Notes: generated by a model from the letters alone, not told the origin. Numbered from the stretch's first letter, positions 12,753 through 42,667 are shown. The stretch is DNA of 64,000 bases from an uncultured Verrucomicrobiae bacterium (GCA_963702845.1 OY969763.1:2624001-2688000), one strand, 5' to 3'. Translations and numbers: made by a program.

Positions 12753-14108
12753 ATGAGCTTCACAATTAATCGCCGCCGTTTCCTCCAAACCTCTGCCGCG
12801 TCGCTCGCCTTCTCGGCCCTCGGCAGCTATGGCGTCGAACTCATCAACCAAAAACCCAAACGCGTCGGCCTGATCGGCACCGGCTGGTATGGCAAGAGCG
12901 ATCTGTTCCGCCTCATCCAGGTCGCGCCCATCGAAGTGATCTCGCTGTGCGACCCGGACAAACATCAGCTCGCGGAAGCGGCGACCATGGTCAGCCAGCG
13001 CCAGAAATCAAAAAAGATTCCCCGCACCTACACCGACTATCGAAAGATGCTCGCGGAAAAAGACCTCGACATCGTGCTCATTGGCACGCCCGACCACTGG
13101 CACGCACTGCAAATGATCGCCGCCGTCGAGTCAGGCGCAGACGTTTACTGTCAAAAACCCATCAGCGTCGATGTGATGGAAGGCGAAGCCATGATCGCGG
13201 CGGCACGCAAGCACAACCGAGTCGTGCAAGTCGGCACTCAACGCAAAAGCACGCCGCACCTCATCGAGGCCAAGAAAAACATCGTCGAAGCCGGCCTGCT
13301 CGGAAAAATCGCCCACGTCGACATCTGCTGCTACTACCACATGCGCGCCAACGGCAACCCGCCGGTCACCGCCGTCCCCGATTACTTCGATTACGACATG
13401 TGGACTGGCCCAGCCCCGCTGCGGCCGTTCGACGGCATGCCGCACACCCGCTGGTGGCGCACCTTCATGGAATACGGCAACGGCATCGTCGGCGACATGT
13501 GCGTGCACATGCTCGACACCACGCGCTGGATGCTCAAGCTCGGTTGGCCGAATCGCGTCACCTCCTCTGGCGGAATCTTCGTCGACAAAACCGGCAAGTC
13601 CAACATCAGCGACACCCAATCCGCCACGTTCGACTACGACAACCTCACGGTGAATTGGCAGCACCGCACCTGGGGCGCTCCGCCCGATCCGCAATACGAT
13701 TGGGCCCTCGTTCTTTACGGCGACAAAGGCACGCTTAAAGCAAGCACCTGGAAATACGATTTCATTCCGAACAAAGGCACGACCATCCACAAAGACTGCG
13801 TTTTCGAGCGCGAGAAATTTCCCGAAGACGTGACCGAACCAAAAATCGAACTCAACGCCGCGCCCGCCACGCGTCTGCACATGCTCGATTTCCTCGCCGC
13901 CATCGACAAACGCAGCCGCCCCGTCGCCGACATCCAGGAAGGCCACATCTCCACGGCAAGCTGCATCCTCGCCAACGTCTCCATGAAACTCGGTGGCCGC
14001 CCGCTCGTTTACGACCAGGCCAAACGCCAGGTCGTCGGTGATCACGAAGCAACAAAACTTTTACGCCGTCCTTACCGCACCGGGTACAAACATCCCGAGG
14101 TGGCATAA
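12753..14108 (+). CDS. Tat-exported Gfo/Idh/MocA-family oxidoreductase (left anchor of the accessory region)
   Basis: NRRRFL Tat motif, GLIGTGWYG, TPDHWH, YCQKP, DMCVHMLD. Confidence 0.93.
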   Translation: MSFTINRRRFLQTSAASLAFSALGSYGVELINQKPKRVGLIGTGWYGKSDLFRLIQVAPIEVISLCDPDKHQLAEAATMVSQRQKSKKIPRTYTDYRKMLAEKDLDIVLIGTPDHWHALQMIAAVESGADVYCQKPISVDVMEGEAMIAAARKHNRVVQVGTQRKSTPHLIEAKKNIVEAGLLGKIAHVDICCYYHMRANGNPPVTAVPDYFDYDMWTGPAPLRPFDGMPHTRWWRTFMEYGNGIVGDMCVHMLDTTRWMLKLGWPNRVTSSGGIFVDKTGKSNISDTQSATFDYDNLTVNWQHRTWGAPPDPQYDWALVLYGDKGTLKASTWKYDFIPNKGTTIHKDCVFEREKFPEDVTEPKIELNAAPATRLHMLDFLAAIDKRSRPVADIQEGHISTASCILANVSMKLGGRPLVYDQAKRQVVGDHEATKLLRRPYRTGYKHPEVA

Positions 14109-14136
14109 TCGGTTGGGTCAAAGTTCAAGAAGCAAA
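14065..14136 (+). repeat. L repeat, copy 1 (native oxidoreductase 3' end plus downstream 28 bp)
   Basis: GCCGTCCTTACCGCACCGGGTACAAACATCCCGAGGTGGCATAATCGGTTGGGTCAAAGTTCAAGAAGCAAA; recurs at 14589, 23784, 31568 and 38099. Confidence 0.9.
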
Positions 14137-14154
14137 ACACCCTGCGGATGCCGT

Positions 14155-14445
14155 TTAACTCGAAGTGTTCTCAAAATAATCAGCACCGCACTTAGAACAG
14201 TGTGTGACCTCGACGGTTACCGTGCGCAATGGTTTTTTACACTTCGGACATACCAGTCGATTGTTGCCGAGGACAACAGCGAAAATGCAGAACACCACCC
14301 CGAAGCCGGGCAACATAGGGCCAATCCGGCCACTCGGCTGACCGAATTTCGACATCAGGAGACCGATGCCAACGAGCACTATCCCGGTGTGCAACAAGTA
14401 TCGAGATGTCTTAAGGCGGGATTTCGAAATGCGTGTATTGGTCAT
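14155..14445 (-). CDS. Small membrane protein with CxxC...CxxC zinc ribbon (cassette cargo 1)
   Basis: Two TM segments, CPKC and CSKC; ATG 7 nt after GTTCGGC. Confidence 0.7.
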   Translation of the reverse strand: MTNTRISKSRLKTSRYLLHTGIVLVGIGLLMSKFGQPSGRIGPMLPGFGVVFCIFAVVLGNNRLVCPKCKKPLRTVTVEVTHCSKCGADYFENTSS

Positions 14446-14495
14446 TGGTTCAGCCGAACAATTAATACGACATGTGTTCGCATATTTTTTAATTC

Positions 14496-14548
14496 ACGAA
14501 CAGCGCCTTATATATCACCAACCCGCTGTTCGTTGAAGCATTCTTCAC
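14496..14548. repeat. R hairpin repeat (attC-like), copy 1
   Basis: ACGAACAGCG...TATATCACCAACC-CGCTGTTCGT followed by TGAAGCATTCTTCAC. Confidence 0.8.
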
Positions 14549-14559
14549 TTCAGCCTTTG

Positions 14560-14585
14560 TAGCCTTTAGAATTTAGCCTTCGTTC
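14560..14585 (+). repeat. S repeat TAGCCTTTAGAATTTAGCCTTCGTTC, copy 1
   Basis: Identical 26-mer at 15263-15288 and 23756-23781; inverted variant near 32082-32099. Confidence 0.85.
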
Positions 14586-14588
14586 TGG

Positions 14589-14660
14589 GCCGTCCCTACC
14601 GCACCGGATACAAACATCCCGACGTGGCGTAAGCGGTTGGGTTAAAGTTCAACAAGCAAA
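14589..14660 (+). repeat. L repeat, copy 2 (displaced oxidoreductase 3' end, RPYRTGYKHPDVA*)
   Basis: 65/72 identical to 14065-14136; the four coding differences are all at third codon positions. Confidence 0.92.
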
Positions 14661-14678
14661 GCAGAGTGCCGACGTAGT

Positions 14679-15035
14679 TCACTCTCTGGCACCGGTTTGA
14701 TACAGATGCTCCGCACAATAAACAACCCCTCGGACGCGAGGTTGATCGCATCCCTGCCGAATGCACTTCTCGTCCGTAAGTCCGCCTCGCGACCGTATTA
14801 AATAATCACGCCGCAACAACGTAGTGTCGAATTCTCTCCACCCATCTCGCTCGGGGATCTTAACAGCGAACTGTGTCTGAAGTTTGTCGAATTCGTCCAC
14901 CGACCAAAGCTGGTCGCAACACGGGCAGCGAAAGAGACGCACCCAATTACCTGTTTCCAATAGTTCGAAGCGCCCGATTTCCGGATGATTGTCCAGCTTT
15001 ACGATGTCTGGAAGCTGAGAGCATTTGCACGGCAT
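14679..15035 (-). CDS. Small Cys-rich putative metal-binding protein (cassette cargo 2)
   Basis: CKC, CPCC, C-x4-C...C-x2-H; start just after GTTACGC. Confidence 0.7.
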   Translation of the reverse strand: MPCKCSQLPDIVKLDNHPEIGRFELLETGNWVRLFRCPCCDQLWSVDEFDKLQTQFAVKIPERDGWREFDTTLLRRDYLIRSRGGLTDEKCIRQGCDQPRVRGVVYCAEHLYQTGARE

Positions 15036-15073
15036 AGCGAATTCTGACGGCGTAACATGGTTCTCTGACCAGA

Positions 15074-15117
15074 GCCTTGTATATCACCAACCCGCCATTC
15101 GTTGAAGCATTCTTCAC
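15074..15117. repeat. R hairpin repeat, copy 2 (left arm replaced)
   Basis: GCCTTGTATATCACCAACCCGCCATTCGTTGAAGCATTCTTCAC. Confidence 0.8.
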
Positions 15118-15137
15118 GGGACCAATTTGGTGGCGGC

Positions 15138-15210
15138 AGCTCCGTTAGGAGCGACATGTTTATAGAAACAACCCACAAAAAGACCAAACAAGCTCCGTAG
15201 GAGCGGCATG
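15138..15210. repeat. REP-like doublet AGCTCCGT(T)AGGAGCGRCAT
   Basis: Two direct copies of a short hairpin GCTCC-GT(T)A-GGAGC. Confidence 0.6.
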
Positions 15211-15289
15211 AGCAAAGAACAGAGCCGCGTGCATCAAAAGATCTCTTTTTTGTTTTAGCCTTTAGCCTTTAGAATTTAGCCTTCGTTCC

Positions 15290-16732
15290 ATGTCTCGATT
15301 GATGCGTTTATGCCGCTGGTGGTTGCTCGTGCTCGCTTTGAATGCCGGCGCGGCGGAAAAGCTCAACGTGCTCTACATCATCTCGGATGACTTGCGTGAC
15401 ACGGTGGGTTGTTATGGCAACACCGCGGTGAAGACTCCAAATATTGACCGGCTGGCGCAACGCGGCGTCTGCTTCGAGCGGGCTTATGCGCAATACCCCA
15501 TTTGCAACCCAAGCCGCGCTTCCTTTCTGACCGGCTTGCGTAGTGAGCAAACGCACGTCGTCGGCAACCGGACCATGTTCCGCACGAAGCTGCCGGACAT
15601 CGTCACTCTCCCACAACTGTTGCGGCAGCAAGGATGGCATGCGGCGTCTTTCGGCAAAGTATTTCATGTCGGAGAAAGCATCGGGGAAATTCGCGACGGC
15701 TGGATGGACCTGGGCAAATCGTGGGATGAAGCGGCTATGTTCCAGCCCACCGAGGCCGGGCGCGTCATCGAAGGCCGCAACCTGACCGGCGGCAAATTGA
15801 AATGGTGCGAATGGGGCGCGACGGCGGGCGGCGACGATGATCAACCCGACGGCCAGACGGCGCAACACGCCCTGGCAGTCATCGAACGGGAAACCAAGGC
15901 CGGCAAACCGTGGCTCGTCGCAGCCGGTTTTCATCGACCGCACGACCCGTTTATCTCGCCCAAAAAGTATTTCGACCTGTATCCGCCCGGCTCGATGAAA
16001 ATCTATCACGACCCGACCAACGTCACGAAGCTGCCGCCCCTATCCATAGCTGGTGGCGCGTTTACCGAGGCTTTCAATGCATTCACCGAGCGCGAGCGCC
16101 AGGAATTTCAACGCGCTTACTATGCCGGGGTTTCTTTTACCGACGCGCAAGTCGGCCGGCTCATGGAAGAATTGGATAAGCGCGGGCTTTGGGAACACAC
16201 ACTGGTGATTTTCTCGGGTGACAACGGTTATCATCACAACGAGCGGGGTTGGTGGAACAAAAACACCTTGTTCGAGCGCAGTTGCCGGGTGCCGTTGATT
16301 GTCGTGGCGCCAGGCGGCGCGCGGGGCAAAGTCTGTCACTCACTGGTCGAGCTTGTAGATATTTACCCCACCGTGGCGGATTATTGCGGGCTGCCGGCAC
16401 CGCATAAATTGGCCGGTCAGAGCTTGCGGCCCTTGTTGCAAAATCCCGCAGGCAAAGGGCGCGACGCCGCTTTCACCCTGGTTGTGCGCGGCAGAAACTA
16501 CGGCCAGGCGGTGCGCACCGAACGCTGGCGCTTCATTCAATGGAGCGATGGAAACATGGAACTCTACGACGAACTAAAGGACCCGGAAGAAACGCACGAC
16601 GTTTCCTCCGCGCGTCAGAACGGGGCTGTGATTACGGAATTGAAAACCCTGCTCAACCAACGCATCGGCCCTTACCAACCCGACGCCCCAGCCAAAGTCA
16701 GCCAGCAACGCAGAGGCAAAAAGACAACGTGA
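15290..16732 (+). CDS. Sulfatase (iduronate-2-sulfatase-like)
   Basis: SDDLR, CNPSR formylglycine motif, GKVFH, GFHRPH; signal peptide. Confidence 0.93.
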   Translation: MSRLMRLCRWWLLVLALNAGAAEKLNVLYIISDDLRDTVGCYGNTAVKTPNIDRLAQRGVCFERAYAQYPICNPSRASFLTGLRSEQTHVVGNRTMFRTKLPDIVTLPQLLRQQGWHAASFGKVFHVGESIGEIRDGWMDLGKSWDEAAMFQPTEAGRVIEGRNLTGGKLKWCEWGATAGGDDDQPDGQTAQHALAVIERETKAGKPWLVAAGFHRPHDPFISPKKYFDLYPPGSMKIYHDPTNVTKLPPLSIAGGAFTEAFNAFTERERQEFQRAYYAGVSFTDAQVGRLMEELDKRGLWEHTLVIFSGDNGYHHNERGWWNKNTLFERSCRVPLIVVAPGGARGKVCHSLVELVDIYPTVADYCGLPAPHKLAGQSLRPLLQNPAGKGRDAAFTLVVRGRNYGQAVRTERWRFIQWSDGNMELYDELKDPEETHDVSSARQNGAVITELKTLLNQRIGPYQPDAPAKVSQQRRGKKTT

Positions 16733-16816
16733 TCAACCACGCCCGCTCGTTTACGACTCTGGTCATCTTGTAATTTGTATTTTCCCCTCAACCCTCAACT
16801 ATCCCCCCTCTCACCG

Positions 16817-17890
16817 CTACTTTCCAAACGCCGTTTCAACAAACCGGTACGCTTCACGCCGGATTGTCGTCGGGAACGAATGTTCGCATTCCGGACTTGT
16901 GACCACAAAGCGATCGGCAGCGCCGAGAAGTTTGTAGACCGATTCGATCTCCGGTATCGCCGACCGCACGCCCGCGAATTCGAAGTTGGCGTCGAACTTG
17001 GGACTATTGGAAAAAACCGCGCGCGGCGCGATCGCCCCAATCACTTCCGTCAAATCAAACGGCACCTCATCCGGATTACTGTGATAAACATCGCGGATAG
17101 CCGGCATATACCGATCCTGCGCCCAGTTCGCCAACTTCTTCCCGCCATAATAATAATGGAACGGCGTCCACCCGCAGCTCGTCACCACAGCCGTGATACG
17201 CTCATCAAAGGCCGCTGTGAAAAGCGCGTTGTGCCCGCCAAGGGAATGGCCGATGACAGCGATCCGCTTCCGGTCCACATCGCTGCGCGCGAGCAAGACA
17301 TCGACGCATCGCATATTGTCTGCGATCGCCTTCATCGTTCCTGACCGATACGGCGAAGTTTTGAAGTTATAATTCGTCAGCTCGCCGAACGAAGAATAGT
17401 CCGGCGCAATGACAACGTATCCCAGCCGTGCAAGCTCGGTCGCATAGCCAAAATTGCGATCACCGGGAAACGTATCGTCACTGATATCTTTCCCAACCGT
17501 CGCAGTCTGCTGCACCGCCAACGCCGCCGGCCGACGCTCGTTTGGCCCGATGTCATTCGGAACGTAGAGATAAGCCGGAATATGTTCGTTAAACAGCGTA
17601 TCGATCGTCACCAATTCGCGGTGATAAGTGGCGAATGACAGCGACTGGCGGATCTGCACCACCGGCGCGGCGAGCTTCGAGCGATCGGGCAAGGGACCCA
17701 TCACCTGTTGCATTCCGGAAAGAATAGCTCGCCGCCGCAACTGCCAATCGCCAGGAGTCGCTATCGTTTTGATTTGTCCGGAAGGATTCGCAAACCAATC
17801 AAGCCTGGCATGATCAAGAGACCCGCCATTAACCGTGGCAATCGTTAGGAAAATTAAAAAAATGGAACCGATCAGAACAGACAGTTTCAC
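16817..17890 (-). CDS. Secreted alpha/beta hydrolase (dienelactone hydrolase/acetyl xylan esterase-like)
   Basis: GHSLGG nucleophile elbow, IAPR, C-terminal His (EHSF); start codon uncertain. Confidence 0.8.
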   Translation of the reverse strand: MKLSVLIGSIFLIFLTIATVNGGSLDHARLDWFANPSGQIKTIATPGDWQLRRRAILSGMQQVMGPLPDRSKLAAPVVQIRQSLSFATYHRELVTIDTLFNEHIPAYLYVPNDIGPNERRPAALAVQQTATVGKDISDDTFPGDRNFGYATELARLGYVVIAPDYSSFGELTNYNFKTSPYRSGTMKAIADNMRCVDVLLARSDVDRKRIAVIGHSLGGHNALFTAAFDERITAVVTSCGWTPFHYYYGGKKLANWAQDRYMPAIRDVYHSNPDEVPFDLTEVIGAIAPRAVFSNSPKFDANFEFAGVRSAIPEIESVYKLLGAADRFVVTSPECEHSFPTTIRREAYRFVETAFGK

Positions 17891-17991
17891 GGCGCGAGCA
17901 TAAAACAGTTGCCGGAAAGTGGTGAGAAATTTTTCGCGCCCGCGTCCTGAAGGGACAACACGAAACGCTCCGTCCTGAAACGGCTGGTCAA

Positions 17992-23715: not shown

Positions 23716-23755
23716 AGAGACACGAACCTTGCGAAACTCGGTCTCTGTTTTCCTT

Positions 23756-23829
23756 TAGCCTTTAGAATTTAGCCTTCGTTCCGCGCCGTTCCTACGGCAG
23801 CGGATACAAACATCCCGAGGCCGGCATAA
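23756..23829 (+). repeat. S repeat joined to L repeat (copy 3)
   Basis: Same S-L junction as 14560-14632; CGCCGTTCCTACGGCAGCGGATACAAACATCCCGAGG. Confidence 0.88.
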
Positions 23830-23965
23830 AAGACGCGGTTCATAGCCGGAACGATTCACTTCATCTGGCGAGCGAACGCGCCACCGCGTCGAACTATCGC
23901 GGGGGCAGTCAAAGGCGTAAAACTTTTCTGTCATATTTTTGTCCGGGCCGACATTTAATATATGA

Positions 23966-25270
23966 ATGAGCAACCTCTCTGACGGCGAATTGTTGGCACA
24001 ATTTGTCCGGAACAATTCCGAGACGGCTTTTTCCACCCTGGTGGAACGCCATCTGGCTTTGGTTCATTCCGTCGCGTTGCGACAAACCGACAATCCCCAG
24101 GACGCCCAGGACATTTCACAAGCGGTATTCATGATCCTGGCGCGGAAAGCTGCCACGCTCCGCTCCGGAACAGTCCTGCCCGGCTGGCTTTATCAAACGG
24201 CTCTTTTTACCGCGGCGAATTTTCAACGGGCTGAATGGCGGCGCACCCGACGAGAACAGGAAGCAGCTATGCAATTAGACCCGAACGAAGGTGCGCACGA
24301 CGTCGCTTGGCGTGAACTCAGCCCGCACCTCGAATCGGCCATGGCACGACTCAACCCAATCGACCGTGACGCGTTGGTGCTGCGCTATTTTCAAAACCGC
24401 AGCATGACCGAGGTTGGTGCTGCTTTCGGTTGGACCCAAAACACGGCGCAGCAAAGGGTCGGACGTGCGCTGGAAAAGCTTCGAAAACTTTTCGCCAAGC
24501 GAGGTTGTGTGGTGGGCGTGACTGCTTTGGCCGGAGTCATTTCGGCCAATGCAGTTCAGGCCGCGCCCGCTGGTTTAATAGGAACGGTAGCGAGCGGTGC
24601 ATTGTCGTCTGGCGCGGCAGCAGGCAGTTCAGCATTCACCATGGCAAAAGGAGTTTCGAAGATCATGGTTTGGATGAAAATCAAAACCGCAGCCGTTGCT
24701 ACAATTGGACTATTGATGATCGGCGGAATCTCGACAGCAACGTGGGCCACCTTTTTTAAGCCGAGAATTGTTTTCAGTTCATTCGGCTCAACAGAAAAAT
24801 ACGACAAGTCTGGTTCCTGGGCTGTCTATGATACCGGCAAGCCTGGCAAACGCGATGGCTACCGCGGGCAGGCAGAATGGTTTTCGCCGAACATCAACGG
24901 ACGATTGAAAACGATTGAAGCCGCCATTCGCTGCGACCGGCGAAACGGCGGACCGCTTGATTTTTCCATTACTGAAGACGGAAACGGCATTCCGGGAAAA
25001 GTCCTGGAACATTTTTCAGTTTTACCATCCGCCGTCGGTAAAGGTTCGATACTTGTTTTGAATTCAACGGCAAAACCAAAACTGCAAGCGGGCCAAAAAT
25101 ATTGGTTGTGCGCCGAGCCTGTGGATTCGTCGAGCCAGTGGGGCTGGTCTTTCAACAATCAGAATCTGGCAACGGGTCATGCCTACGCGGTGGAACGAGG
25201 GGAAGGGAAATGGGAATTTTTCAAAGGCGGGCCCAACAATGGCGCGTTCAGCGTCGCCGTTTCTCCATAA
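23966..25270 (+). CDS. ECF sigma-70 factor with TM linker and C-terminal extracytoplasmic (choice-of-anchor R-like) domain
   Basis: SDGELL...AFSTLVERH...DAQDISQAVF...GWLY sigma2; LVLRYF...QRVGRALEKLR sigma4; hydrophobic segment; beta-sandwich tail. Confidence 0.88.
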   Translation: MSNLSDGELLAQFVRNNSETAFSTLVERHLALVHSVALRQTDNPQDAQDISQAVFMILARKAATLRSGTVLPGWLYQTALFTAANFQRAEWRRTRREQEAAMQLDPNEGAHDVAWRELSPHLESAMARLNPIDRDALVLRYFQNRSMTEVGAAFGWTQNTAQQRVGRALEKLRKLFAKRGCVVGVTALAGVISANAVQAAPAGLIGTVASGALSSGAAAGSSAFTMAKGVSKIMVWMKIKTAAVATIGLLMIGGISTATWATFFKPRIVFSSFGSTEKYDKSGSWAVYDTGKPGKRDGYRGQAEWFSPNINGRLKTIEAAIRCDRRNGGPLDFSITEDGNGIPGKVLEHFSVLPSAVGKGSILVLNSTAKPKLQAGQKYWLCAEPVDSSSQWGWSFNNQNLATGHAYAVERGEGKWEFFKGGPNNGAFSVAVSP

Positions 25271-26085: not shown

Positions 26086-26253
26086 ATGCGTCGTGTTTAG
26101 CGGACAAAGACCACCTGTACCCAAACGCGCCAAGTGTTTGGGGCTTTATTTCTGATCGGCTTCGTATTCCTTATTTGGTCTGGAAGGGTGATTCCGGCCA
26201 CGTCGGCGGCGATGTACCTTGAAGCTAACCAATCGCCGAACCCGACCGTCCGG

Positions 26254-26311
26254 GCGGCGATCGATAAACGCAGCCGGCCTATCGCAGATTCAAGGAAGGT
26301 CACATCTGCAC
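26254..26311 (+). pseudogene. Internal 3'-proximal fragment of the Gfo/Idh/MocA gene (AAIDKRSRPIAD..EGHI)
   Basis: Homologous to 13896-13954, with mostly third-position substitutions and a 1-nt indel. Confidence 0.8.
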
Positions 26312-26362
26312 TAAAGGCAAAAATTTGAATCCTTTTCGCATCGGCGGCCATATGCTTGTAAG

Positions 26363-27575
26363 ATGATCGGTGATGACATGGAGTTGGTCCGGGACTATGC
26401 CCGACGCGGGTCCGAGGAGGCCTTCGCCACGCTGGTGTCGCGCCATGTCAATTTGGTTTACTCGGTCGCGCTGCACCAGCTTCGTGACACTCATCTGGCG
26501 GAAGAAGTTACCCAGGCCGCTTTCATCATTCTGGCGCGAAAGGCCGGCTCGCTCGATTCGAAAACGATTCTCTCAGCCTGGCTCTGCCGCACCGCGCAAT
26601 ACTGCGCCGCCGATGCCTTGCGATCTCAGCGCCGCCGCCAAATCCGCGAACAGGAGGCCTACATGCAATCCACGCTAAATGAAACTGAGCCCGACTCGGC
26701 CGCATGGCAGGACATCGCTCCGCTGCTGAACGTCGCCATGGCGGGATTGGGCGAGAAGAATCACAGCGCACTCGTGCTCCGGTATTTTGAAGGCAAGGAT
26801 TGGAAACAGGTCGGGGCCGAACTGGGCATCGACCAACGAACCGCCCAGACCCGCGCCAGGCGCGCACTGGAAAAATTGCGCAAGTTTTTCGTCAAACGCG
26901 GAATCGACCTGGCGTCCACGGTCGATTGCCGGAGCGATTTCCACCAACACTGTCCAGGCCGCGCCGGTCGCGCTTTCAAAAACCGTAACGAGTATCGCGC
27001 TGGCCAAAGGCGCGACGGCTTCCGCATCAACCTTAACCCTTATCAAAGGAGCATTAAAACTTATGGCATGGTCAAAAACAAAATCGACGGTCGTCGTATG
27101 TGTGGTAACTCTACTGCTTGGAGGCGGGATCGCCACCATCGTCCTCAAGGCGAAGGCACGCGCGGCCCTCGCCAACGATCCCGTCGCCTACCAGTTCCGA
27201 AATCAATCGCCAATCGCAACCGACAAATTGAGAGAACAACTCATCGGGAATTGGGCGCTCGAAGCCAAGAGGCTGGGCGTCGATAAAAAATATAGCCATT
27301 TCAACGACAACAACCGCCTGAAAATGTGGACCGAGACCAATTGGGCCATCATCACTTACGATGCCAAGTCGAATGTCGTGTACTCGGCCAGCGGCTCCTA
27401 CGAATTGCAAGGCGACCTTTATACCGAAACAATCGAAAAGGCAACCGGCACCATGGCCAGTTACGTCGGCGCCCGTCCGAAATTCAGACTGCGCGTCGTT
27501 GGCGATAAATATTATCAAACGGCACTGGGCGACAAGCCCGGGCTTCAGGAAATTGGCCATCGCCTCCCGCAGTGA
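26363..27575 (+). CDS. Second ECF sigma-70 factor with C-terminal extension (apparent frameshift near 26915)
   Basis: ORFs 26363..27286 and 26787..27575 join; sigma2/sigma4, 'ISTNTVQAAP' linker, TM segment, different C-terminal domain. Confidence 0.82.
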
Positions 27576-27585: not shown

Positions 27586-27629
27586 TCGGCAAGGAGACAC
27601 TTTACTTTTTTGGCCAATTCGAGATTCGC
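27586..27629 (-). pseudogene. Displaced copy of the 3' end of the 29631-31001 gene (ELAKKVKxLLA)
   Basis: 40/44 identity to 29635-29678. Confidence 0.8.
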
Positions 27630-29630: not shown

Positions 29631-31001
29631 TCAGTCGGCAAGGAGGCGCTTTACTTTTTTGGCCAATTCGGGATCCGCACCCATTTTCTCGAGCGCAAGT
29701 TTTCGGTCGCGGGTGGCGACGTCGCGCCTGATTGTTTCAAGGTCGGACTCAACGTGCGGCACCGCGATGAGACTGATGCTCCCCATCTCGTCTTTGGTTT
29801 GTTCGCCCCACTCGACATGGATAGGCGGGGTCGACGGGTTGTGCGGATTGTCCGCCGAGTTGTCCCAATGAATTTCCGACGAGAGCGTGGTTCCTTTGGG
29901 CAACGGAACGAAGTCTTTGAAATAATACCGGTCCTGCCAGGCGAAATCCCAGTCCTTGATGAGCAGAAGCGTCTTCACCTGGCCGTCCGGGAGCGTCGCT
30001 GTCATTTTCATTTGCGTGGCGAGGTAATGCGCGTGCGCGCTCACGCCGACTCCATCCACCGCGACCGGCAAGGTATAGGAATCGCGCAGGACAAAATCCT
30101 TTTGACCGGCGGGAATATCGAGTCCCGAAAAGAGCGAATAGTGCGGAGGCAATTGAATGCGGGTGATGTTTCGTTCGGGCGCTTTTTTGGCGAAGTAAAA
30201 TCCGATCCGCGATTTTTCAACCTCCGGCTTGCCGGTGGGATGGAAATGATATTGGACGATGAAGTCCGATCCCGCCGGCACTTTGAGCGCAAGGCCGTTC
30301 GGAAGGAAATGCGGTTGCGCACCGACTGCCCAACCGCCGAGCGGAAGCACCTGACGACCGCCGGGGCGCATACCGTTGAAGCCGGGTTCGGCGCCCTGGG
30401 ACGGGCGTAAGTGGGCGTGGCCGCTGCCGTCAGCGAAATAGAGAACGTGATGGACGACGGCGCGTGCAGAAGGCTTCATGTCAATGGCCGTGATCCATTT
30501 GTCCTCGGCCAAACCAAGTTGAACCGGAATATTGCGATAGATGTCCGGCCCGTCGGCGGGGACATGAAAACCCGCAGGCATCTCAATCACGAGGTCGGGT
30601 TCGCCCAGTTGCCAACCAGAGGCGAATTTCGGCGGCGTGGGTTTTTGGGAGGAATCGCCCTCGAGCATGCCGGCGGCGACCCAGGCTTTAATCGTGGCGA
30701 TTTGCTGCTCAGTGAGACGGCGTTCATCGCGATAGGCGTAGGAGGCAGGTTCGGCTTTCCACGGCGGCATGTTGTGCAACGAGACGGCCTTGCCGATCGT
30801 TTTGCCCTTTCGTCGCACATCCTCATACGACAACAGGGAAAACGGGGCCGCTTCGCCCGGACGATGGCACGAGGAACAGTTTTGATAAATGATGGGGGCG
30901 ACCTGGTTGTTGAACGTGACGGCGTCGCCCGCCTGAACGACTCGTGCCGCGAATGTCAGCGCGAGAAATACGGCGAACTTTTGAACACAGTGGGCTTTCA
31001 T
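29631..31001 (-). CDS. Cytochrome c / copper type II ascorbate-dependent monooxygenase-like fusion
   Basis: CSSCH heme motif and MPPW; HHVL, QYHFH, SAHAHY and DEMG copper-ligand motifs. Confidence 0.8.
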   Translation of the reverse strand: MKAHCVQKFAVFLALTFAARVVQAGDAVTFNNQVAPIIYQNCSSCHRPGEAAPFSLLSYEDVRRKGKTIGKAVSLHNMPPWKAEPASYAYRDERRLTEQQIATIKAWVAAGMLEGDSSQKPTPPKFASGWQLGEPDLVIEMPAGFHVPADGPDIYRNIPVQLGLAEDKWITAIDMKPSARAVVHHVLYFADGSGHAHLRPSQGAEPGFNGMRPGGRQVLPLGGWAVGAQPHFLPNGLALKVPAGSDFIVQYHFHPTGKPEVEKSRIGFYFAKKAPERNITRIQLPPHYSLFSGLDIPAGQKDFVLRDSYTLPVAVDGVGVSAHAHYLATQMKMTATLPDGQVKTLLLIKDWDFAWQDRYYFKDFVPLPKGTTLSSEIHWDNSADNPHNPSTPPIHVEWGEQTKDEMGSISLIAVPHVESDLETIRRDVATRDRKLALEKMGADPELAKKVKRLLAD

Positions 31002-31004
31002 ATT

Positions 31005-31562: not shown

Positions 31563-31567
31563 GATAA

Positions 31568-31588
31568 AAACATCCGGAGCCGGTATAA
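31568..31588 (+). repeat. L repeat, copy 4 (KHPEPV*)
   Basis: AAACATCCGGAGCCGGTATAA. Confidence 0.7.
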
Positions 31589-31607
31589 CGACCTCAAAGG
31601 CCAGAAT

Positions 31608-31970
31608 CTAGTTCTTTGGCGCGTATTTTTGTATCCAAGGCTCTGGCTTATTGCCCAAATCTTCGCCCGTCTTCGTGCGCAAATACCCAATTATATCTCG
31701 AATGACATTCGTCCGCTGAAGATTACAAACCTGGTCGAGCGGTGACCCTTCTCTCTGCTTCATATTCAGGCCGTAGCTAGCGTACGATAGGCGCTTAGCC
31801 GCTTCTGGAACATTCGTGCCAAGCGCCTCATCGCGATACCGCTGCAAACCGAATACTTCTCTCTGGGCGTATGCAACTTCCACGTTTCGAGTCATGTCGC
31901 CGAGAAAGTGAATCACGACAATGAAAAACACTCCAAGCCCAGCCCATACTTTTATCCATCGAGGAATCAT
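31608..31970 (-). CDS. Small membrane-anchored hypothetical protein (cassette cargo 3)
   Basis: N-terminal TM segment, 120 aa; start shortly after GTTGAGGC. Confidence 0.7.
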   Translation of the reverse strand: MIPRWIKVWAGLGVFFIVVIHFLGDMTRNVEVAYAQREVFGLQRYRDEALGTNVPEAAKRLSYASYGLNMKQREGSPLDQVCNLQRTNVIRDIIGYLRTKTGEDLGNKPEPWIQKYAPKN

Positions 31971-31999
31971 AGGTTCAGTATGGCCTCAACAATTAATCC

Positions 32000-32049
32000 A
32001 CGAGCAGCAGGTTGTATATCACCAACCTGCTGTTCGTCGCAATTCAATC
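32000..32049. repeat. R hairpin repeat, copy 3
   Basis: ACGAGCAGCAGGTTG-TATATCAC-CAACCTGCTGTTCGT, with a compensatory pair relative to copy 4. Confidence 0.85.
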
Positions 32050-32106
32050 ATGGGACATCTTGGTGGCCGGGTCGCTGAAAAAAGGCTAAATGCTAAAGGG
32101 AAAAAC

Positions 32107-32190
32107 TACCGATGGCGCGGACGCGGAACCAGAGCTTGCTGCCGCTGGTCAATCCTTTCAACGCAAACTTGGATTTCTCAGAACAAGCGG
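32107..32190 (-). pseudogene. Relic of a fibronectin type III domain C-terminus
   Basis: Reads SEKSKFALKGLTSGSKLWFRVRAIG, with no start codon. Confidence 0.6.
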
Positions 32191-33601: not shown

Positions 33602-33657
33602 TGATTCAAATGGCCAAACATCGGCCGTGGGTCGCTGAGCCGCTGAAGGCAGACTGA

Positions 33658-34158: not shown

Positions 34159-34200
34159 GACCGTCCGACCCATGACATCCATCCATTCGCGAAGAAATGT

Positions 34201-34280
34201 GTAGGAGACGAGGTGACGAGTCTCTGACTTCCTGTCGGACGAGCGGAGTTCAATTTGAGACTTGTCACCTCGTCTCCTAC
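34201..34280. repeat. REPIN-like inverted pair of GTAG REPs
   Basis: GTAGGAGACGAGGTGACGAGTCTC ... GAGACTTGTCACCTCGTCTCCTAC (23/24 inverted match). Confidence 0.85.
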
Positions 34281-34329
34281 AAAATTAAATTTTTGTCGCT
34301 TAGCCTGATGGCTGTTTTATTCTGGCGCG

Positions 34330-35376
34330 GTGAACCTGTCTATTCTGACCGCTTCCATTTTTCTGAGCGCAAGCATCGCCGCGCAGGCCGATAAAGCCGA
34401 TAGGTACCTGAATGCCCAAATGCGCGAGCATCGCATCCCCGGCCTTGCCTTACGCGTGCTTCGCAATGGCAAACCGATCAAGACGGCAGCTTATGGGCTG
34501 GCCAATATTGAATTGAACGTGCCGGTCACTTCGAAGTCGGTTTTCGAGATTGGTTCGGACACGAAACAATTCACTGCCGCCTGCATTCTCCTTTTGCAGC
34601 AGGAAGGAAAGCTCTCGGTTGATGACCCGATCACGAAATATCTAAAGGATGCCCCCGCGGATTGGAGCAACATTCGCATCCGCCATCTGCTTTCGCACAC
34701 GTCCGGGTTGAAAAGTTACACCGTCCTCGATGGTTTCGCCCTGACCCGCCATCTCACCCAAAAACAATTCATCGATCTCATCGCCAAACAGCCGCGCGAA
34801 TTCGCGCCGGGCGAGGCTTTCAATTATTGCAATACCGGCTACAACCTTCTCGGGCTGATTGTTGAAAATGTCAGTGGCGCGCATTACTGGCAGTTTCTGC
34901 GGGAACGCATCTTCCAACCCTTGGGCATGAACTCCACCACTTCGCGCGACCCGTCGATCATCGTCACCAATCGCGTGAACGGTTACGAGCATCCGCGTCG
35001 GGGTGGCTTGATCAACCGCGACTACGACCTCACGGACATCTTTGCCGCTGGTGCGATCGTGTCGACCGTCGAGGATCTCAGCCGTTGGAATAACGCTCTC
35101 GACACCGATAAACTTCTCAGCAGGGAAAGCAAACGGCAGATGTGGACCCCGGCCAAACTGAACAATGGCACAGAGACCGACTACGGGTTTGGCTGGCGCA
35201 TTTCAACGGTGGATGGCCACAGGAACATTGGCCACGGCGGCTCTACCTCTGGATTTTCTGCCACGATCCAGCGATTTCCGGACGATCATCTCGTGGTGAT
35301 CATCCTCAGCAACACTGACGAGGAAATCGCCACCAAGCTCGGTAAGCAAGTCGCCACATTCTACTTTGCCAAATGA
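34330..35376 (+). CDS. Serine hydrolase, beta-lactamase (AmpC/PBP-like) family
   Basis: SDTK (SxxK), LLSHTSG, YCN, HGG. Confidence 0.9.
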   Translation: MNLSILTASIFLSASIAAQADKADRYLNAQMREHRIPGLALRVLRNGKPIKTAAYGLANIELNVPVTSKSVFEIGSDTKQFTAACILLLQQEGKLSVDDPITKYLKDAPADWSNIRIRHLLSHTSGLKSYTVLDGFALTRHLTQKQFIDLIAKQPREFAPGEAFNYCNTGYNLLGLIVENVSGAHYWQFLRERIFQPLGMNSTTSRDPSIIVTNRVNGYEHPRRGGLINRDYDLTDIFAAGAIVSTVEDLSRWNNALDTDKLLSRESKRQMWTPAKLNNGTETDYGFGWRISTVDGHRNIGHGGSTSGFSATIQRFPDDHLVVIILSNTDEEIATKLGKQVATFYFAK

Positions 35377-38093: not shown

Positions 38094-38098
38094 GCTCT

Positions 38099-38160
38099 CC
38101 GCGCCGGACACAAACATCCCGAGCCGGCATAACCGGTTGGGTTAAAGTTCAAGAAGCAAA
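38099..38160 (+). repeat. L repeat, copy 5 (RAGHKHPEPA* plus GGTTGGGTTAAAGTTCAAGAAGCAAA)
   Basis: Homologous to 14075-14136. Confidence 0.9.
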
Positions 38161-38168
38161 GCGGAGGC

Positions 38169-38459
38169 TCACGATGCGCTCTTTTTCGAAAACGGCAGAC
38201 TAAACAACAAACCCCAGCAAAGACTCTGCAAAATCATCACTAGAGTGCTTCCTTCGGAGCCAAATCCTTCCCGGTGGTGCAGCAGCTTAAATATCGTAGT
38301 CAGAGGAAAAGTAAAAATATACATCGGGATCTCCCAAGAACCGTGTCCGCCAGTAGGACTCGTCGCTTCCGCAGCTGCTAGAACGATGCAGCCAAATCCC
38401 AGCAGGAGATGAATAATCCCAATTACAATAGCGACTGTGAAATTGGGGCGCAGATGCAT
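38169..38459 (-). CDS. Small membrane protein (cassette cargo 4)
   Basis: MHLRPNF..., 2-3 TM segments; ATG 7 nt after GTTCGGAC of the hairpin. Confidence 0.7.
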   Translation of the reverse strand: MHLRPNFTVAIVIGIIHLLLGFGCIVLAAAEATSPTGGHGSWEIPMYIFTFPLTTIFKLLHHREGFGSEGSTLVMILQSLCWGLLFSLPFSKKSAS

Positions 38460-38469
38460 ACAGATTGTC

Positions 38470-38518
38470 CGAACAGCGGGTTGTATATCACCAACCCGCT
38501 GTTCGTCGCAATTCAATC
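38470..38518. repeat. R hairpin repeat, copy 4
   Basis: Perfect 14-bp inverted repeat CGAACAGCGGGTTG-TATATCAC-CAACCCGCTGTTCG. Confidence 0.88.
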
Positions 38519-38525
38519 GCGCAGT

Positions 38526-39146
38526 TTACGGGGCGCAGGTGACAATCACGCTTTCGCTCCAGGTGCCGACTTCCACGCCGTCCAAAACATACACCGCCTT
38601 ATACTCGCGTTGCTCCGGTTTGCCGGCGGCGAGCAGCACGCGGGTGTCGACGTAGGGCGACTCGGTGTCGCGGGCCAGGAAACTGAATTCGGTCTCCGCG
38701 CCGCGTCGGCAATAGATGTTCACGCCGTCGCCCTTGGGGTTGGTGAAGTCGATCTGGGCCTGGCCGTTGACCAGCGGTTTGCCGGTGATTTTCGGCGCGG
38801 CGGTGTGGATGTCGAAGGTGTCTTCGGCTCCGTTGATGCCGTAAGTGTCGCCCACGCCCGGATTGTAGGCGGCGCTGGATTTGATGCGATTGGCCAAACC
38901 GCGGCTCTGGGCGATGGCGATGATGAGGCTGGTGTTTTTGGCGGTGACGGCGTTTTTGGCCGCCACTTGCGCGGTGTTGTTGGCGCTTATTTTGGTGTGC
39001 AAATCGGTGTTGGCGGCGCCGATGGCGGTGACCTCGCCGGCGGTCAAACCGTAAGTCGTCCCGCTGGCGACGGCCGCAGCCTTGAAGATGTCGTGCCAGG
39101 CGAGGAACTCTGCGTCTTTGTGGGGGATGAAGTCTTTTCTAGCCAT
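38526..39146 (-). CDS. Hypothetical protein (helical N-terminus, FN3/Ig-like C-terminus)
   Basis: DFIPHKDAEFLAW N-terminus; 'PYVDTR...REYKAVY...VGTWSESV' C-terminus; strong codon bias. Confidence 0.8.
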   Translation of the reverse strand: MARKDFIPHKDAEFLAWHDIFKAAAVASGTTYGLTAGEVTAIGAANTDLHTKISANNTAQVAAKNAVTAKNTSLIIAIAQSRGLANRIKSSAAYNPGVGDTYGINGAEDTFDIHTAAPKITGKPLVNGQAQIDFTNPKGDGVNIYCRRGAETEFSFLARDTESPYVDTRVLLAAGKPEQREYKAVYVLDGVEVGTWSESVIVTCAP

Positions 39147-39231
39147 ATGTTCTTTGTATTTAAGTGGTTAACTGACTCTGGACGTTTCCACGGGATGCCC
39201 GGGAAATTCCCCCGAACGCTCGGGGGAAAAT

Positions 39232-39450
39232 CTGGAAGCTCTGGCGGCACCGCCAGAGACGCTGGCGGTAGAGCCAGAGGTTCTGGCGCTAAAGCTGGAT
39301 GTTCCGGCGGTGCGGCTGGAACGGCTGGCGGTGCCGCTGGAAGTTCTGGCTAGACCGCTGGCGGTTGCGGCGGTGCCGCTAGAAATTCCAGCGGTAAGTC
39401 CAGAAGGCGTAGCGGTGCGGCTGAACAGTCCAGCGGTGCGGCTGGAGTCC
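39232..39450. repeat. Degenerate 21-bp tandem array (about 10.5 units)
   Basis: Consensus approximately CTGGAAGTTCTGGCGGTGCCG, exact 21-bp period. Confidence 0.85.
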
Positions 39451-39546
39451 CCATCCCTGTCCCGACCACCCGCCGGGACGGCGTATGCTGACGCGCGTGC
39501 CATGATTCGCCCGGGATTGTTCCCGACACGTTCACCGTGTCAAGCG

Positions 39547-39860: not shown

Positions 39861-39875
39861 CTACAATTCTCGCCT

Positions 39876-40089
39876 TTATTTACCCGCCGCCGCCGCCGGC
39901 ACATAGACCACTCGATTGGGCTGCGTCGGCGCATAGGCGTTGCGTTGGGGAATGTTGGCGCGATGGAACGGTTTGTAATCCTTGATCGCCCCAACTCGCG
40001 CGATGCGCAGCGACTTGCGAATGATTCCCTTGCCGCCGTTGCTGTCGCTGAACTTGCCTTCGCCGTAGCCCACGCCTTTTGTCCCGGAG
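39876..40089 (-). pseudogene. Displaced copy of the 3' end of the 41591-42667 gene
   Basis: SGTKGVGYGEGKFSD...NRVVYVPA; 9 synonymous and 3 non-synonymous codon differences before the variable tail. Confidence 0.92.
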
Positions 40090-40105
40090 TGCTCGTCGTC
40101 CAGTT

Positions 40106-41502
40106 TCATTGCGATTGTAGAATGTAGAACTGCTGGGCGACGTTGGGATCAATGTTCAGAGATGACGGTTTGTGCTGGCCGTCGGTCAAAGTGAAATTAT
40201 TGCTGCCCCGAATGCTGATAGTATTAGTCCAAATCGTTGTCCACGGTCCGGGCGGATCGCTAAGGTTCGTGGTCGCGAGCAAATAATTTAGGCCACCAAA
40301 ATAACAGGTCCCGACAAGCTGCAGATTGGTGTTTGAAACAATGCTGATACTCGTCAGCACAGGCTCCGGCGCGGGAACAATCCGTTCGGGAAACTGACAA
40401 TTGCCCGTAAAACCATCGCCAAGTTGATAATAGGTGTCCTGACCCATTCCCCAAAGGACGCCGTCGGATTTCAAATACAGACTGTGATGGGCCTCACATC
40501 CCTTTGCGACTGCAATAACATCGCAATCCACGAGAGTCGGCTTGTTTGTGCTGCCAACGCCGCCAATGCCAAGCTGGCCGTATTGGTTTGCGCCCATGAC
40601 ATACAGGCAACCGTCGGACTTAAGAAAGAGACAGTGTTGCCATGCCCCAGCGATTGCGACAACGTTGCTGGACACAATCTGCACCGGCCGATTGGTGACG
40701 TAGACGGTCTCGCCGAGTTGTCCAAAAACGCCGGAACCCATTCCCCAAAGGCTGCCGTCAGATTTTAAAAACAGGCTGAAGCCACCGCCGCCTGCAATAG
40801 AAACAACCCCGTTGGAAATGATCTGCTCGGGTTGGTTTGTATTGCTCAAAGTACATCCCCGAGCTGACCATTGAAATTGGCCCCCATCGCCCAAAGACTG
40901 CTATCAGATTTCAGGAAGAGACTATGATCTTCTCCAGCGGCTATGGCTGTAACATCGCTATCGACGATTTTCTGCGGTCGGTTTGTCGTTGTGAACGTTC
41001 CATTTCCGAGCGAGCCATAATTGTTGTAGCCCATCGACCAAAGGCTTCCGTCCGATTTAAGAAAAAGAGAATGGTTACCTCCAGCAGCGATCGCCACCAC
41101 TCCCTGCGATACGATCTGCTCCGGTTTGTTCGTGTCGGTGAAAGTTCCATCGCCGAGTGCGCCGTATTGGTTCGACCCCATGACCCAAAGACTTCCGTCC
41201 GATTTAATAAACAGACTGTGACGAAATCCGGTGGCGATTGCCGTCACGCTGTTGGAGACGATCAACTCCGGTCGTTTGGCCGGATTCAGAGTCCCATCGC
41301 CAAGCTGGCCGGCGACATTATTTCCCATGGCCCAAAGACTGCCATCAGATTTGACGTATAGGCTGTAAAGATCACCAACGGCACTGTTAGTCACCGTTAC
41401 AGCGCCGATCGCGAAAATTCTAGAAAGCAACAAGGCCAGAACACCCAATTTGACCATCAAGATTGCACGGTAAGGCCGTGCGCTAAAAGAGGGTGCTTTC
41501 AT
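40106..41502 (-). CDS. Secreted RCC1-repeat protein (apparent frameshift near 40855)
   Basis: HSLFLKSDGSLWxMGxNxxGQLGDGT repeats in ORFs 40846..41502 and 40106..40894. Confidence 0.87.
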
Positions 41503-41590
41503 TCGCTATCTTATTGAACCACCGCGTTGGAACTTGCAAGCGGCTTTCTTTCCGCAACCGTCCAACGAAAATGCGCCCTTTACCTCAGCC

Positions 41591-42667
41591 TCATTTACCG
41601 GACGCACTCGTCGTCGCCGGAGCCGGCACATAGACCACTCGATTCGGCTGCGTCGGCGCATAGGCGTTGCGTTGGGGAATGTTGGCGCGATTGAACGGTT
41701 TGTAATCCTTGATCGCCCCGACTCGCGCGATCCGCAGCGATTTGCGTATGATTCCCTTGCCGCCGTTGGCATCGCTGAATTTGCCCTGGCCGTAGCCCAC
41801 GCCCTTCGTCCCGGAGAGGTTCGATGAAAAATATTTGAACCCAACAATCTTGTTCTGCTCATCACGCAGCCATCCCACGAAGATGACGGCATGGCCGCTG
41901 GGCTTGGTCGTGTCGTAGCTGATGAAATCTCCGGGCCGGCATTTCTCCAGATCATCCACGCTGATGCCGTAACCCAGGCCGTAGGATTTGATCGCGCGCC
42001 GTTCGCAATCGCCCTTGCCCTCGATATACCAAAATTGGAGCGCGTTGAAGAGATCGCCGAAGGTCATGCCGTTGAAATCGTCGGGGTCCAATCCCTTTTG
42101 GATATTGCGCAGCTTCATCGCGCGGGTGAACACCTCAAAGGTAAACCCGCAACAATAACTGCAACGCGAACCGTCCGGATACGCTTTGGCCACGACCATG
42201 CCCTTATACCACATGTCCTGCGTCACGCCGTTGTAGATGTCATACTCGCGCACTTTCCAACTGCAATGATACGGCAGCGATCCGTCCAGCGGATAACCGG
42301 AGATGACCGCCATCACATACGGGTTCAACGCGCCTTCTTCGTCGTCCTGCACCAGTTGTTCACGCGCATAATATTTTGCCAGCGTCTTGTCGACCGGCGA
42401 GAACCCGCGTTCATCGACCGGATATGGTTTGGGCGTATAAAGGAACCGGCGACTTTCCGGTTTGGACGGATCCAGGTTTTTGGGTGTCGCTGTAACGTGG
42501 CCCTCAGCCGAAGACTGGATTACTCCTGGGAATATGGAACTGGGGTTTGTTGGCGCGGCAACTTGGCACTGAGCCGAAGTGTTGACCAAAGCAGTAATTG
42601 CAACGAAGCAAACCGAAATGTGCCGCCGTAGCAGCAAACGAAAAATCGCAGACGTGTTCATCTTCAC
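41591..42667 (-). CDS. Secreted putative papain-fold (NlpC/P60-like) Cys hydrolase; right anchor of the accessory region
   Basis: SYCCGFTFEV ... PGDFI ... GHAVIF Cys/His pattern; signal peptide. Confidence 0.65.
   Translation of the reverse strand: MKMNTSAIFRLLLRRHISVCFVAITALVNTSAQCQVAAPTNPSSIFPGVIQSSAEGHVTATPKNLDPSKPESRRFLYTPKPYPVDERGFSPVDKTLAKYYAREQLVQDDEEGALNPYVMAVISGYPLDGSLPYHCSWKVREYDIYNGVTQDMWYKGMVVAKAYPDGSRCSYCCGFTFEVFTRAMKLRNIQKGLDPDDFNGMTFGDLFNALQFWYIEGKGDCERRAIKSYGLGYGISVDDLEKCRPGDFISYDTTKPSGHAVIFVGWLRDEQNKIVGFKYFSSNLSGTKGVGYGQGKFSDANGGKGIIRKSLRIARVGAIKDYKPFNRANIPQRNAYAPTQPNRVVYVPAPATTSASGK

What the first reader, a model, noticed from the sequence alone, without database searches (positions are those of the whole stretch)
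14065..41816. Integrase-free accessory region that appears to grow by displacing the 3' ends of its flanking genes
Seen: the region lies between two convergent genes, the Gfo/Idh/MocA oxidoreductase (+) and the 41591-42667 gene (-). The oxidoreductase 3' end recurs at 14589, 23784, 31568 and 38099 (KHPDVA*, KHPEA.., KHPEPV*, KHPEPA*). Internal pieces recur at 16740-16757 (18-bp exact match to 13998-14015) and 26254-26311. All lie between genes and in the same orientation. The right anchor's 3' end is duplicated at 39876-40089. Differences in the best-aligned copies are concentrated at third codon positions, so those pieces were once functional gene ends, probably from orthologs in related strains. 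No integrase, transposase or RT is visible. Inference: incoming DNA recombines into the anchor gene, replaces its tail and pushes the old tail and earlier cargo inward. That would give an ordered acquisition record, analogous to Rhs C-terminal displacement but using ordinary genes as the landing pad.
Basis: partly seen in the sequence, partly recalled or inferred. Interest (0 to 1): 0.85.

Follow-up and report, generated by a model that had tools for sequence, protein, structure and literature searches.

The report
Gene-tail scars at integrase-free hotspot
Leftover copies of the ends of ordinary genes sit between blocks of acquired DNA in this soil-type bacterium, most likely because incoming DNA from related species recombined into a gene at one end only and pushed the old gene end aside, a known kind of recombination here seen on everyday genes.

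Summary
Four oxidoreductase tail relics, two internal pieces and a 205-bp relic of the right gene are real, same-strand and enriched in third-position changes (28 of 44, p=4e-5). The window has no integrase or transposase. Relatives repeat the pattern with other cargo: G019, G002, L020 and a contig from run X3. Relic starts vary from about -25 to -267, which favours one-sided homologous integration (homology-facilitated illegitimate recombination, or single crossover of recircularised DNA; about 0.55) over a fixed integrase site (0.2). ComEC, DprA and ComM are present. The right gene is accessory (6 of 31 genomes). Divergence shows no age gradient. Cargo genes are landing pads too. Relics also lie far away with cargo. 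The locus is the densest case of a genome-wide pattern: 18 downstream same-strand tail relics at 16 of 3151 genes, against 1 upstream. No excess over other family genomes was shown. A separate hairpin-bounded small-gene module family is mixed in. This scan noted similar relics on other DNA (Patescibacteria, Clostridia). No reads of this strain were found, so contiguity is unconfirmed. A new variant of known mechanisms.

The parts
12753..14108 (+). Gfo/Idh/MocA oxidoreductase, left landing gene
   Evidence: Pfam PF01408/PF19051; matched at E<=1e-180 in 19 of 31 family genomes, G000 included
14109..14145 (+). motif A, one end of the small-gene module; follows the stop codon
   Evidence: an A-like stretch also follows the anchor in G001 and L020
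14155..14445 (-). small variable ORF (96 aa) in module 1
   Evidence: no Pfam family
14489..14548 (.). hairpin B (arms up to 14 bp around an 8-bp spacer), other end of the module; resembles part of the family's attI by eye
14549..14586 (+). dispersed heptamer repeat directly before relic R1; the same repeat precedes R2 and the sulfatase start
14589..14666 (+). relic R1: last 44 bp of the oxidoreductase plus motif A
   Evidence: 4 mismatches, all third position
14679..15035 (-). small variable ORF (118 aa) in module 2
15067..15133 (-). hairpin B with a few codons of an FN3-like gene tail
15290..16732 (+). sulfatase, older cargo shared with G001 in the same relative position
16740..16757 (+). 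18-bp internal relic (-110..-93), stump of a longer relic
   Evidence: a contig from run X3 joins the sulfatase end to 13998-14050 and on to an R2-like tail
23752..23829 (+). heptamer repeat plus relic R2 (-44..stop)
23966..25270 (+). ECF sigma factor cargo behind R2
   Evidence: Pfam sigma70 r2/r4
26249..26311 (+). internal relic (-212..-154)
26363..27575 (+). second ECF sigma factor, split into two frames
   Evidence: a contig of run X4 lacks one base at 26922
27586..27629 (-). tail relic of the cargo gene 29631-31001, 2 kb downstream of it
   Evidence: 91% over 44 bp
29631..31001 (-). cargo gene that itself served as a landing gene
31563..31589 (+). relic R3 (short, weakest)
   Evidence: family D9
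31608..32052 (-). small ORF (120 aa) plus hairpin B, module 3
32050..32190 (-). broken tail of an FN3-like gene, interrupted by the heptamer repeat
   Evidence: translation; similar pieces at 4 other genome places
38099..38166 (+). relic R4 (-33..stop) plus motif A
38169..38521 (-). small ORF plus hairpin B, module 4
38526..39146 (-). FN3-like gene heading a B-ORF-A module; look-alike genes head the modules at genome 1.298 and 2.347 Mb
   Evidence: Atlas lead to fn3 at 0.91, carried by 15% of that cluster
39876..40089 (-). 205-bp in-frame relic of the right gene's 3' end
   Evidence: 16 mismatches in 198 bp, 11 at third positions
40106..41502 (-). RCC1-repeat cargo, split in two ORFs, between the right gene and its relic
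41591..42589 (-). right landing gene, hypothetical and accessory
   Evidence: no Pfam or NCBIfam family; 6 of 31 family genomes; weak NlpC/P60-like lead at 0.90

Best explanation
The region is an integrase-free accessory hotspot that grows partly by one-sided, homology-anchored integration. DNA from a related strain or species carries the 3' part of a resident gene plus whatever follows it in the donor. RecA-type recombination in that gene installs the donor's tail. The far end joins illegitimately, or the fragment has recircularised and enters by a single crossover. The old tail, from a variable point to the stop, is left behind the new cargo. The gene stays intact and keeps its promoter, so the event is tolerated. 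Later deletions, small repeats and ordinary two-sided recombination trim, shuffle and relocate relic-plus-cargo blocks, so the order is only partly chronological. Any gene can be the landing pad, including cargo genes. Shown: the relics, their coding origin, variable starts, recurrence in relatives, the genome-wide downstream same-strand bias, and competence genes. Inferred: the recombination route, the donors and the order of events.
For: Starts vary: -43/-44 (R1, R2), -33 (R4), about -25 (R3), -110 (16740; X3 contig), -212 (26254), -267 (L020), -47 (G019, about -41 in this gene's numbering). For the right gene they are about -225 here and -52 in G002. Third-position bias. Genome-wide, tail pieces that reach the stop number 18 (16 of 3151 genes) downstream on the same strand within 50 kb, 1 upstream, 0 inverted and 62 far; the mid-gene control gives 1 near and 15 far. 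Spreading the 62 far hits evenly would give about 0.3 in that class (my arithmetic). Anchors include pheS, with 7 called genes and none of the tyrosine or serine recombinase hits between gene and relic. ComEC, DprA and ComM pass their cut-offs. In E. coli, partly degraded and recircularised DNA with one-sided homology gave 109-950-bp duplications of the homologous gene end, ten times more often than HFIR (PMC3240628, passages and Discussion read). HFIR is proposed for T6SS and Rhs arrays (PMC5361080, passages).
Against: R1/R2 and the G019 relic start within 3 bp of each other, as a fixed crossover would give. Synonymous bias also follows if a duplicate is left in place and the working copy is later replaced by ordinary recombination. 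Textbook HFIR usually deletes recipient DNA rather than keeping the old tail (PMC3240628). Several of the 16 genome-wide anchors are mobile-element genes (a Y1 transposase and a serine recombinase; others by my recall). G001 has a module inserted behind the anchor with no relic. The strict 5'-end screen shows no matching bias (4 upstream, 3 downstream, 81 far). Relics are rare in relatives: 1 of 17 genome loci of the oxidoreductase and 2 of 62 metagenome loci, one of them weak. Competence genes are common and do not prove uptake.
Confidence: 0.55

Rival explanations
1. A site-specific recombinase acting in trans, or lost from the island, targets the R-R-P-Y codons near the gene end. The relics are attR-type sites of a tandem array, as with partial tRNAs in additive islands.
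For: R1/R2 (-43/-44) and G019 (about -41) start close together. The genome has 11 tyrosine-recombinase matches and 2 serine recombinases elsewhere. In Prochlorococcus, elements push older ones inward and leave partial tRNAs in islands that mostly hold no element (10.1101/2020.12.28.424599, passages).
Against: Other starts range from -25 to -267, and the right gene's starts differ by about 170 bp between G000 and G002. The far copy that BLAST starts at -44 still reads as the gene for four more codons upstream. Sixteen unrelated genes are hit. No integrase or fragment was found among 51 ORFs. None of 20 family pheS loci has a pheS tail relic.
Confidence: 0.2
2. The hairpin-B / motif-A small-gene modules (attI-derived, moved by an integron integrase in trans or in the past) pick up the neighbouring gene tail when they excise and re-enter, so the relics are by-products of a cassette system.
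For: The anchor, R1, R3 and R4 are each followed by a small reverse-strand ORF and hairpin B. The A...B pair occurs at 5 further genome places and in G001 and G002. B shares a stretch with the attI of family integrons by eye.
Against: No integron integrase passes the cut-off in G000 or matches in G001 and G002. The family attC is absent from the window, and BLASTN finds no match between the integron loci and B. R2, 16740, 26254, the right relic and the G019, G002 and L020 relics have no A/B module in front of them.
Confidence: 0.1
3. Local tandem duplication of the anchor, followed by deletion down to a stump; cargo arrives independently.
For: In G001 the heptamer repeat that precedes R1 and R2 lies directly before the anchor's own start codon, so R1 and R2 could be whole copies deleted down to the tail. 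Tandem duplications are direct and local by nature (established knowledge).
Against: A dead duplicate should gather first- and second-position changes; 28 of 44 are third-position. Relics end at or just behind the stop and lie downstream 18 to 1. Unrelated cargo always separates gene and relic.
Confidence: 0.12
4. Chimeric assembly of several strains.
For: No run holds this strain (best share 0.07), so contiguity is untested.
Against: The genome is one contig without N. The repeats are 18-205 bp, 80-100% alike, and flanked by unique DNA. Independent assemblies show the same kind of junction.
Confidence: 0.03

Closest known systems
Homology-facilitated illegitimate recombination, and single crossover of recircularised partly degraded DNA (PMC3240628; passages and Discussion read)
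   Same: One-sided homology; no dedicated recombinase; variable junctions; the single-crossover route duplicates a variable part of the homologous gene end.
   Different: The published duplications were 109-950 bp, made in laboratory conjugation in E. coli. Here the scars are 18-205 bp, diverged, stacked and natural. Junction microhomology could not be read because the donors are unknown.
C-terminal displacement in Rhs loci and T6SS effector-immunity arrays (PMC5361080; passages read; Jackson 2009 seen only as a reference there)
   Same: A new module enters at a conserved anchor and older parts are shifted downstream into an array.
   Different: The anchors here are ordinary enzymes and hypothetical genes. 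The displaced piece is a conserved tail of a few codons, not a variable toxin tip, and the protein is hardly changed.
Integrase-free HGT hotspots turning over by recombination at flanking core genes (PMC5635113; passages read)
   Same: Accessory genes with no mobility protein; 27% of hotspots there lacked any integrase or transposase.
   Different: Double crossover replaces the content and leaves no duplicate. Here tails are duplicated, one flank is not core, and synteny is not kept across the genus.
Additive islands with partial tRNA repeats (tycheposons; 10.1101/2020.12.28.424599; passages read)
   Same: Same-strand copies of the target's 3' end scattered through the island; newer DNA next to the intact gene.
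   Different: Those use an integrase and a fixed site of about 40 nt in a tRNA. No integrase and no fixed start were found here.

Membership tests
Integrase-made genomic island or tandem att array | integrase in the element | tested here: not met
   0 of 51 ORFs; none of 11 tyrosine or 2 serine recombinase matches lies in the window
Integrase-made genomic island or tandem att array | displaced target ends start at one crossover point | tested here: not met
   starts from about -25 to -267; two independent-looking ones near -41/-44
Integrase-made genomic island or tandem att array | same-strand copies of the target's 3' end, target restored | tested here: met
HFIR or single-crossover insertion | homology at one end, variable junction at the other | tested here: met
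   variable relic starts in 4 lineages and one contig
HFIR or single-crossover insertion | 3-10 bp microhomology at the illegitimate joint; RecA dependence | not testable with these tools
   donor sequences unknown; needs strain pairs or experiment
HFIR or single-crossover insertion | DNA uptake machinery in the host | tested here: inconclusive
   ComEC, DprA and ComM present, but ComEC and DprA also pass in 10 of 14 control genomes; uptake not shown
Rhs/T6SS C-terminal displacement | polymorphic toxin with orphan tip-immunity modules | tested here: not met
   anchors are an oxidoreductase and a hypothetical gene; relics are conserved tails
Replacement hotspot (double crossover at core flanks) | both flanks core and syntenic | tested here: not met
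   right gene in 6 of 31 genomes; upstream neighbours of the left gene differ
Replacement hotspot (double crossover at core flanks) | raised recombination in flanking genes | not tested
   too few close genomes (2 congeners, fragmented)
Integron or CALIN | intI | tested here: not met
   best match 85.9 bits against a cut-off of 265
Integron or CALIN | attC after each cassette gene | tested here: not met
   the family attC occurs elsewhere in G000 but not in the window; no attC covariance model was run
Integron or CALIN | attI-like site before the ORF | tested here: inconclusive
   likeness by eye, no BLASTN hit

The most novel reading that the evidence does not exclude
Displaced tails of ordinary genes are a general, recombinase-free footprint of additive one-sided integration of congener DNA. 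Any gene can seed a growing accessory stack, and such scars can be counted genome by genome to measure this route of gene gain in uncultured bacteria. That would supply the missing additive mechanism for hotspots that lack integrases.
Probability: 0.35. Interest if true: 0.7.

Novelty: new variant of a known kind. Interest (0 to 1): 0.45.

Why it matters
Many gene-transfer hotspots have no integrase or transposase. The usual explanation, double recombination at the flanks, swaps content but does not say how new genes first enter. One-sided integration would, yet it has been thought rare and hard to see in nature. A simple scar (downstream, same strand, ending at the stop, synonymous-biased, variable start) makes the question countable in any complete genome. 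This locus is a dense example with partial support from relatives. It is not a new machine.

Tried and rejected
Read check: no run holds the strain (shares 0.05-0.07). Baseline: in 20-kb pieces, downstream same-strand relics were 6 of 1124 genes in every third tile of G000 (3 upstream), 1 of 417 in other family genomes (plus 1 inverted, 1 upstream), 1 of 21 in close relatives and 0 of 326 in distant metagenome loci. The loci were chosen around anchors and the gene calls were rough, so no excess in G000 is shown. A rough first screen suggested a mirror bias of 5' relics upstream (26 against 13); stricter screens did not keep it (6 against 3; 4 against 3). Age gradient along the island: not found. 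pheS as a family-wide target: 0 of 20 loci, some on short contigs. Motif A as the tail of a resident gene: no called protein holds the peptide. Hairpin B across the family: 3 of 31 genomes match, and the G022 match lies in coding-like DNA without the arms. Linkage of the two anchors in a relative: not seen; G010, G021 and G041 have both genes on different contigs. A look for pheT by short motifs found nothing, so its position is not stated. Six literature searches listed no paper on stacked tail relics of ordinary genes without integrase; the library lacks most subscription papers. PMC4048246 (passages) was not useful. Look-ups of earlier notes by place (relatives) and by sequence were empty.
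Full report
The window is G000:C1:2624001-2688000 of a 6.03-Mb single-contig genome without N. The host is probably a member of the Verrucomicrobiota; that is an inference from Atlas taxa, gene content and earlier notes.

Observation. Six pieces pooled give 12, 4 and 28 mismatches at codon positions 1, 2 and 3 (p=3.8e-5). The 198-bp core of the right relic is still an open frame, with 10 synonymous and 3 non-synonymous codon changes. Over 36 bp, relics and congener orthologues differ from each other by 3-9 bases (up to 12 for a far copy), so the relics look like alleles of related species; the stretch is too short for a tree. Pfam finds no integrase, transposase or RT in 51 ORFs. The only tRNA lies at 2777, outside the region. 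Tyrosine recombinases (11 matches), serine recombinases (2) and Y1 transposases (7) are elsewhere in the genome. No integron integrase passes its cut-off.

Relatives. In G019 (another genus) the oxidoreductase's last 47 bp and its downstream DNA recur behind a 0.65-kb insert. In L020 (91% protein identity) an internal piece, -267 to -220, follows a two-gene insert that is 94% identical to one in G001; I read both inserts as HicAB-type pairs from recall, without a family scan. In G002 the right gene's last 52 bp recur 284 bp downstream, behind a small ORF. A contig of run X3 joins the sulfatase end to anchor position 13998-14050 and then to an R2-like tail, so the 18-mer at 16740 is the stump of a longer relic. 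G001 has anchor, small ORF, hairpin, two-gene insert and then the same sulfatase, with no relic. The counts are low: 1 of 17 genome loci and 2 of 62 metagenome loci for the left gene, and 1 of 5 for the right gene. Most of these are distant homologues or short contigs.

Genome-wide. I called 4430 genes with a codon model and searched the last 300 bp of the 3151 genes of 600 bp or more. I dropped genes with more than 8 hits and hits lying over 30% inside a same-strand gene of 400 bp or more. Pieces that reach the stop number 18 at 16 genes downstream on the same strand within 50 kb, 1 upstream, 0 inverted and 62 far. Mid-gene queries give 1 near and 15 far. Pooled mismatches are 42/32/85. Anchors include pheS, with a 79-bp relic 6.8 kb away and 7 of 10 changes at third positions, and genes that I recognise from recall as typA, an aldo-keto reductase and lnt. 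They also include mobile-element genes. Gene starts show no such bias in the strict screen. Selection would explain that, since a 3' swap keeps promoter and protein, but it is an inference. A rough baseline does not show G000 to be richer than its family.

The right gene is accessory, and the left gene changes its upstream neighbours within the genus. A cargo gene (29631-31001) has its own tail relic at 27586, and broken tails of an FN3-like gene lie at 15117 and 32050. At genome 4.696-4.698 Mb an ECF gene is bracketed by a left-tail piece and a right-gene piece in the same polarity as here. At 4.525 Mb three oxidoreductase pieces lie beside a gene that follows the anchor in L020. So blocks move with their scars. 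Divergence does not rise with distance. R1 and R2 share a 29-bp upstream repeat and may descend from one junction.

A second element is interleaved. The anchor, R1, R3 and R4 are each followed by a small, unrelated reverse-strand ORF and a hairpin (B). For three of the four, a conserved motif (A) lies between tail and ORF. The A...B pair recurs at five other genome places and in G001 and G002, twice more behind an FN3-like gene. B resembles part of the attI of family integrons by eye, a lead taken from earlier notes, but BLASTN does not link them and the family attC is not in the window. These modules explain some of the cargo. They do not explain most relic junctions.

Mechanism. Variable starts, many unrelated target genes, the downstream same-strand bias and the ortholog-like divergence fit one-sided homologous integration best (0.55). 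PMC3240628 (passages and Discussion) describes HFIR and reports that partly degraded, recircularised DNA entering by single crossover duplicated 109-950 bp of the homologous gene end. PMC5361080 (passages) proposes HFIR for displacement arrays at T6SS and Rhs loci. PMC5635113 (passages) reports that 27% of hotspots lack any mobility protein. ComEC, DprA and ComM are present. The main rival is a recombinase in trans (0.2): two independent-looking relics start within 3 bp, and islands with partial target repeats but no resident element are known (10.1101/2020.12.28.424599, passages). Cassette by-product (0.1), duplication and decay (0.12) and misassembly (0.03) follow.

Novelty. The ingredients are known. 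Their stacked footprint on ordinary genes, with a genome-wide count, was not in the listings of six searches, though the library is incomplete. Earlier notes of this scan report similar relics in other phyla; they are unchecked. Verdict: real, a new variant of a known kind, interest 0.45.

Noticed in passing
window 14109-14548, 14633-15117, 31590-32052, 38133-39146; G000 0.517, 1.298, 1.329, 2.348, 4.288 Mb; L001, L112: A family of small modules: an optional FN3-like gene, a hairpin with arms up to 14 bp around an 8-bp spacer, a variable small ORF, then a conserved 30-bp end motif. No recombinase or canonical attC goes with it. It is nearly confined to this genus among 31 family genomes.
   Followed up: partly
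window 17858-17908 and 34312-34362; G000 5929424-5929474 and 4523221-4523246: Unrelated secreted proteins share the same DNA around their start, which suggests swapping of cargo behind a common promoter and signal-peptide leader.
   Followed up: no
window 23784-25270, 26249-27575; G000 4696177-4697940: ECF sigma-factor genes follow oxidoreductase relics three times; the genome has 16 such paralogues.
   Followed up: partly
G000 4695900-4698000: A miniature of the island (left-tail piece, ECF gene, right-gene piece) lies between housekeeping-type genes 2 Mb away.
   Followed up: partly
G000 4915917-4923840: pheS is followed by 7 called cargo genes and a 79-bp relic of its own 3' end, with no recombinase match between them.
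   Followed up: partly
window 26363-27575, 40106-41502, 18901-22553: Several cargo genes are split across frames (ECF, RCC1-repeat, a large secreted protein). They are either pseudogenes or long-read indel errors; a relative's contig lacks one base at 26922.
   Followed up: no
window 14549-14586, 15246-15289, 23746-23782, 32073-32104, 16767-16815, 34195-34286, 15130-15215: Dense short dispersed repeats (heptamer runs and REP/MITE-like hairpins; the 34195 hairpin has 37 genome hits at E<=1e-3) sit at many junctions. In G001 the heptamer repeat precedes the anchor's start codon.
   Followed up: partly
window 39168-39503: A low-complexity 21-bp-period stretch with inverted symmetry lies upstream of the FN3-like gene.
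   Followed up: no
window 41591-42589: The uncharacterised right gene has a weak Atlas lead to DUF1175 / NlpC-P60 clusters (0.90).
   Followed up: no
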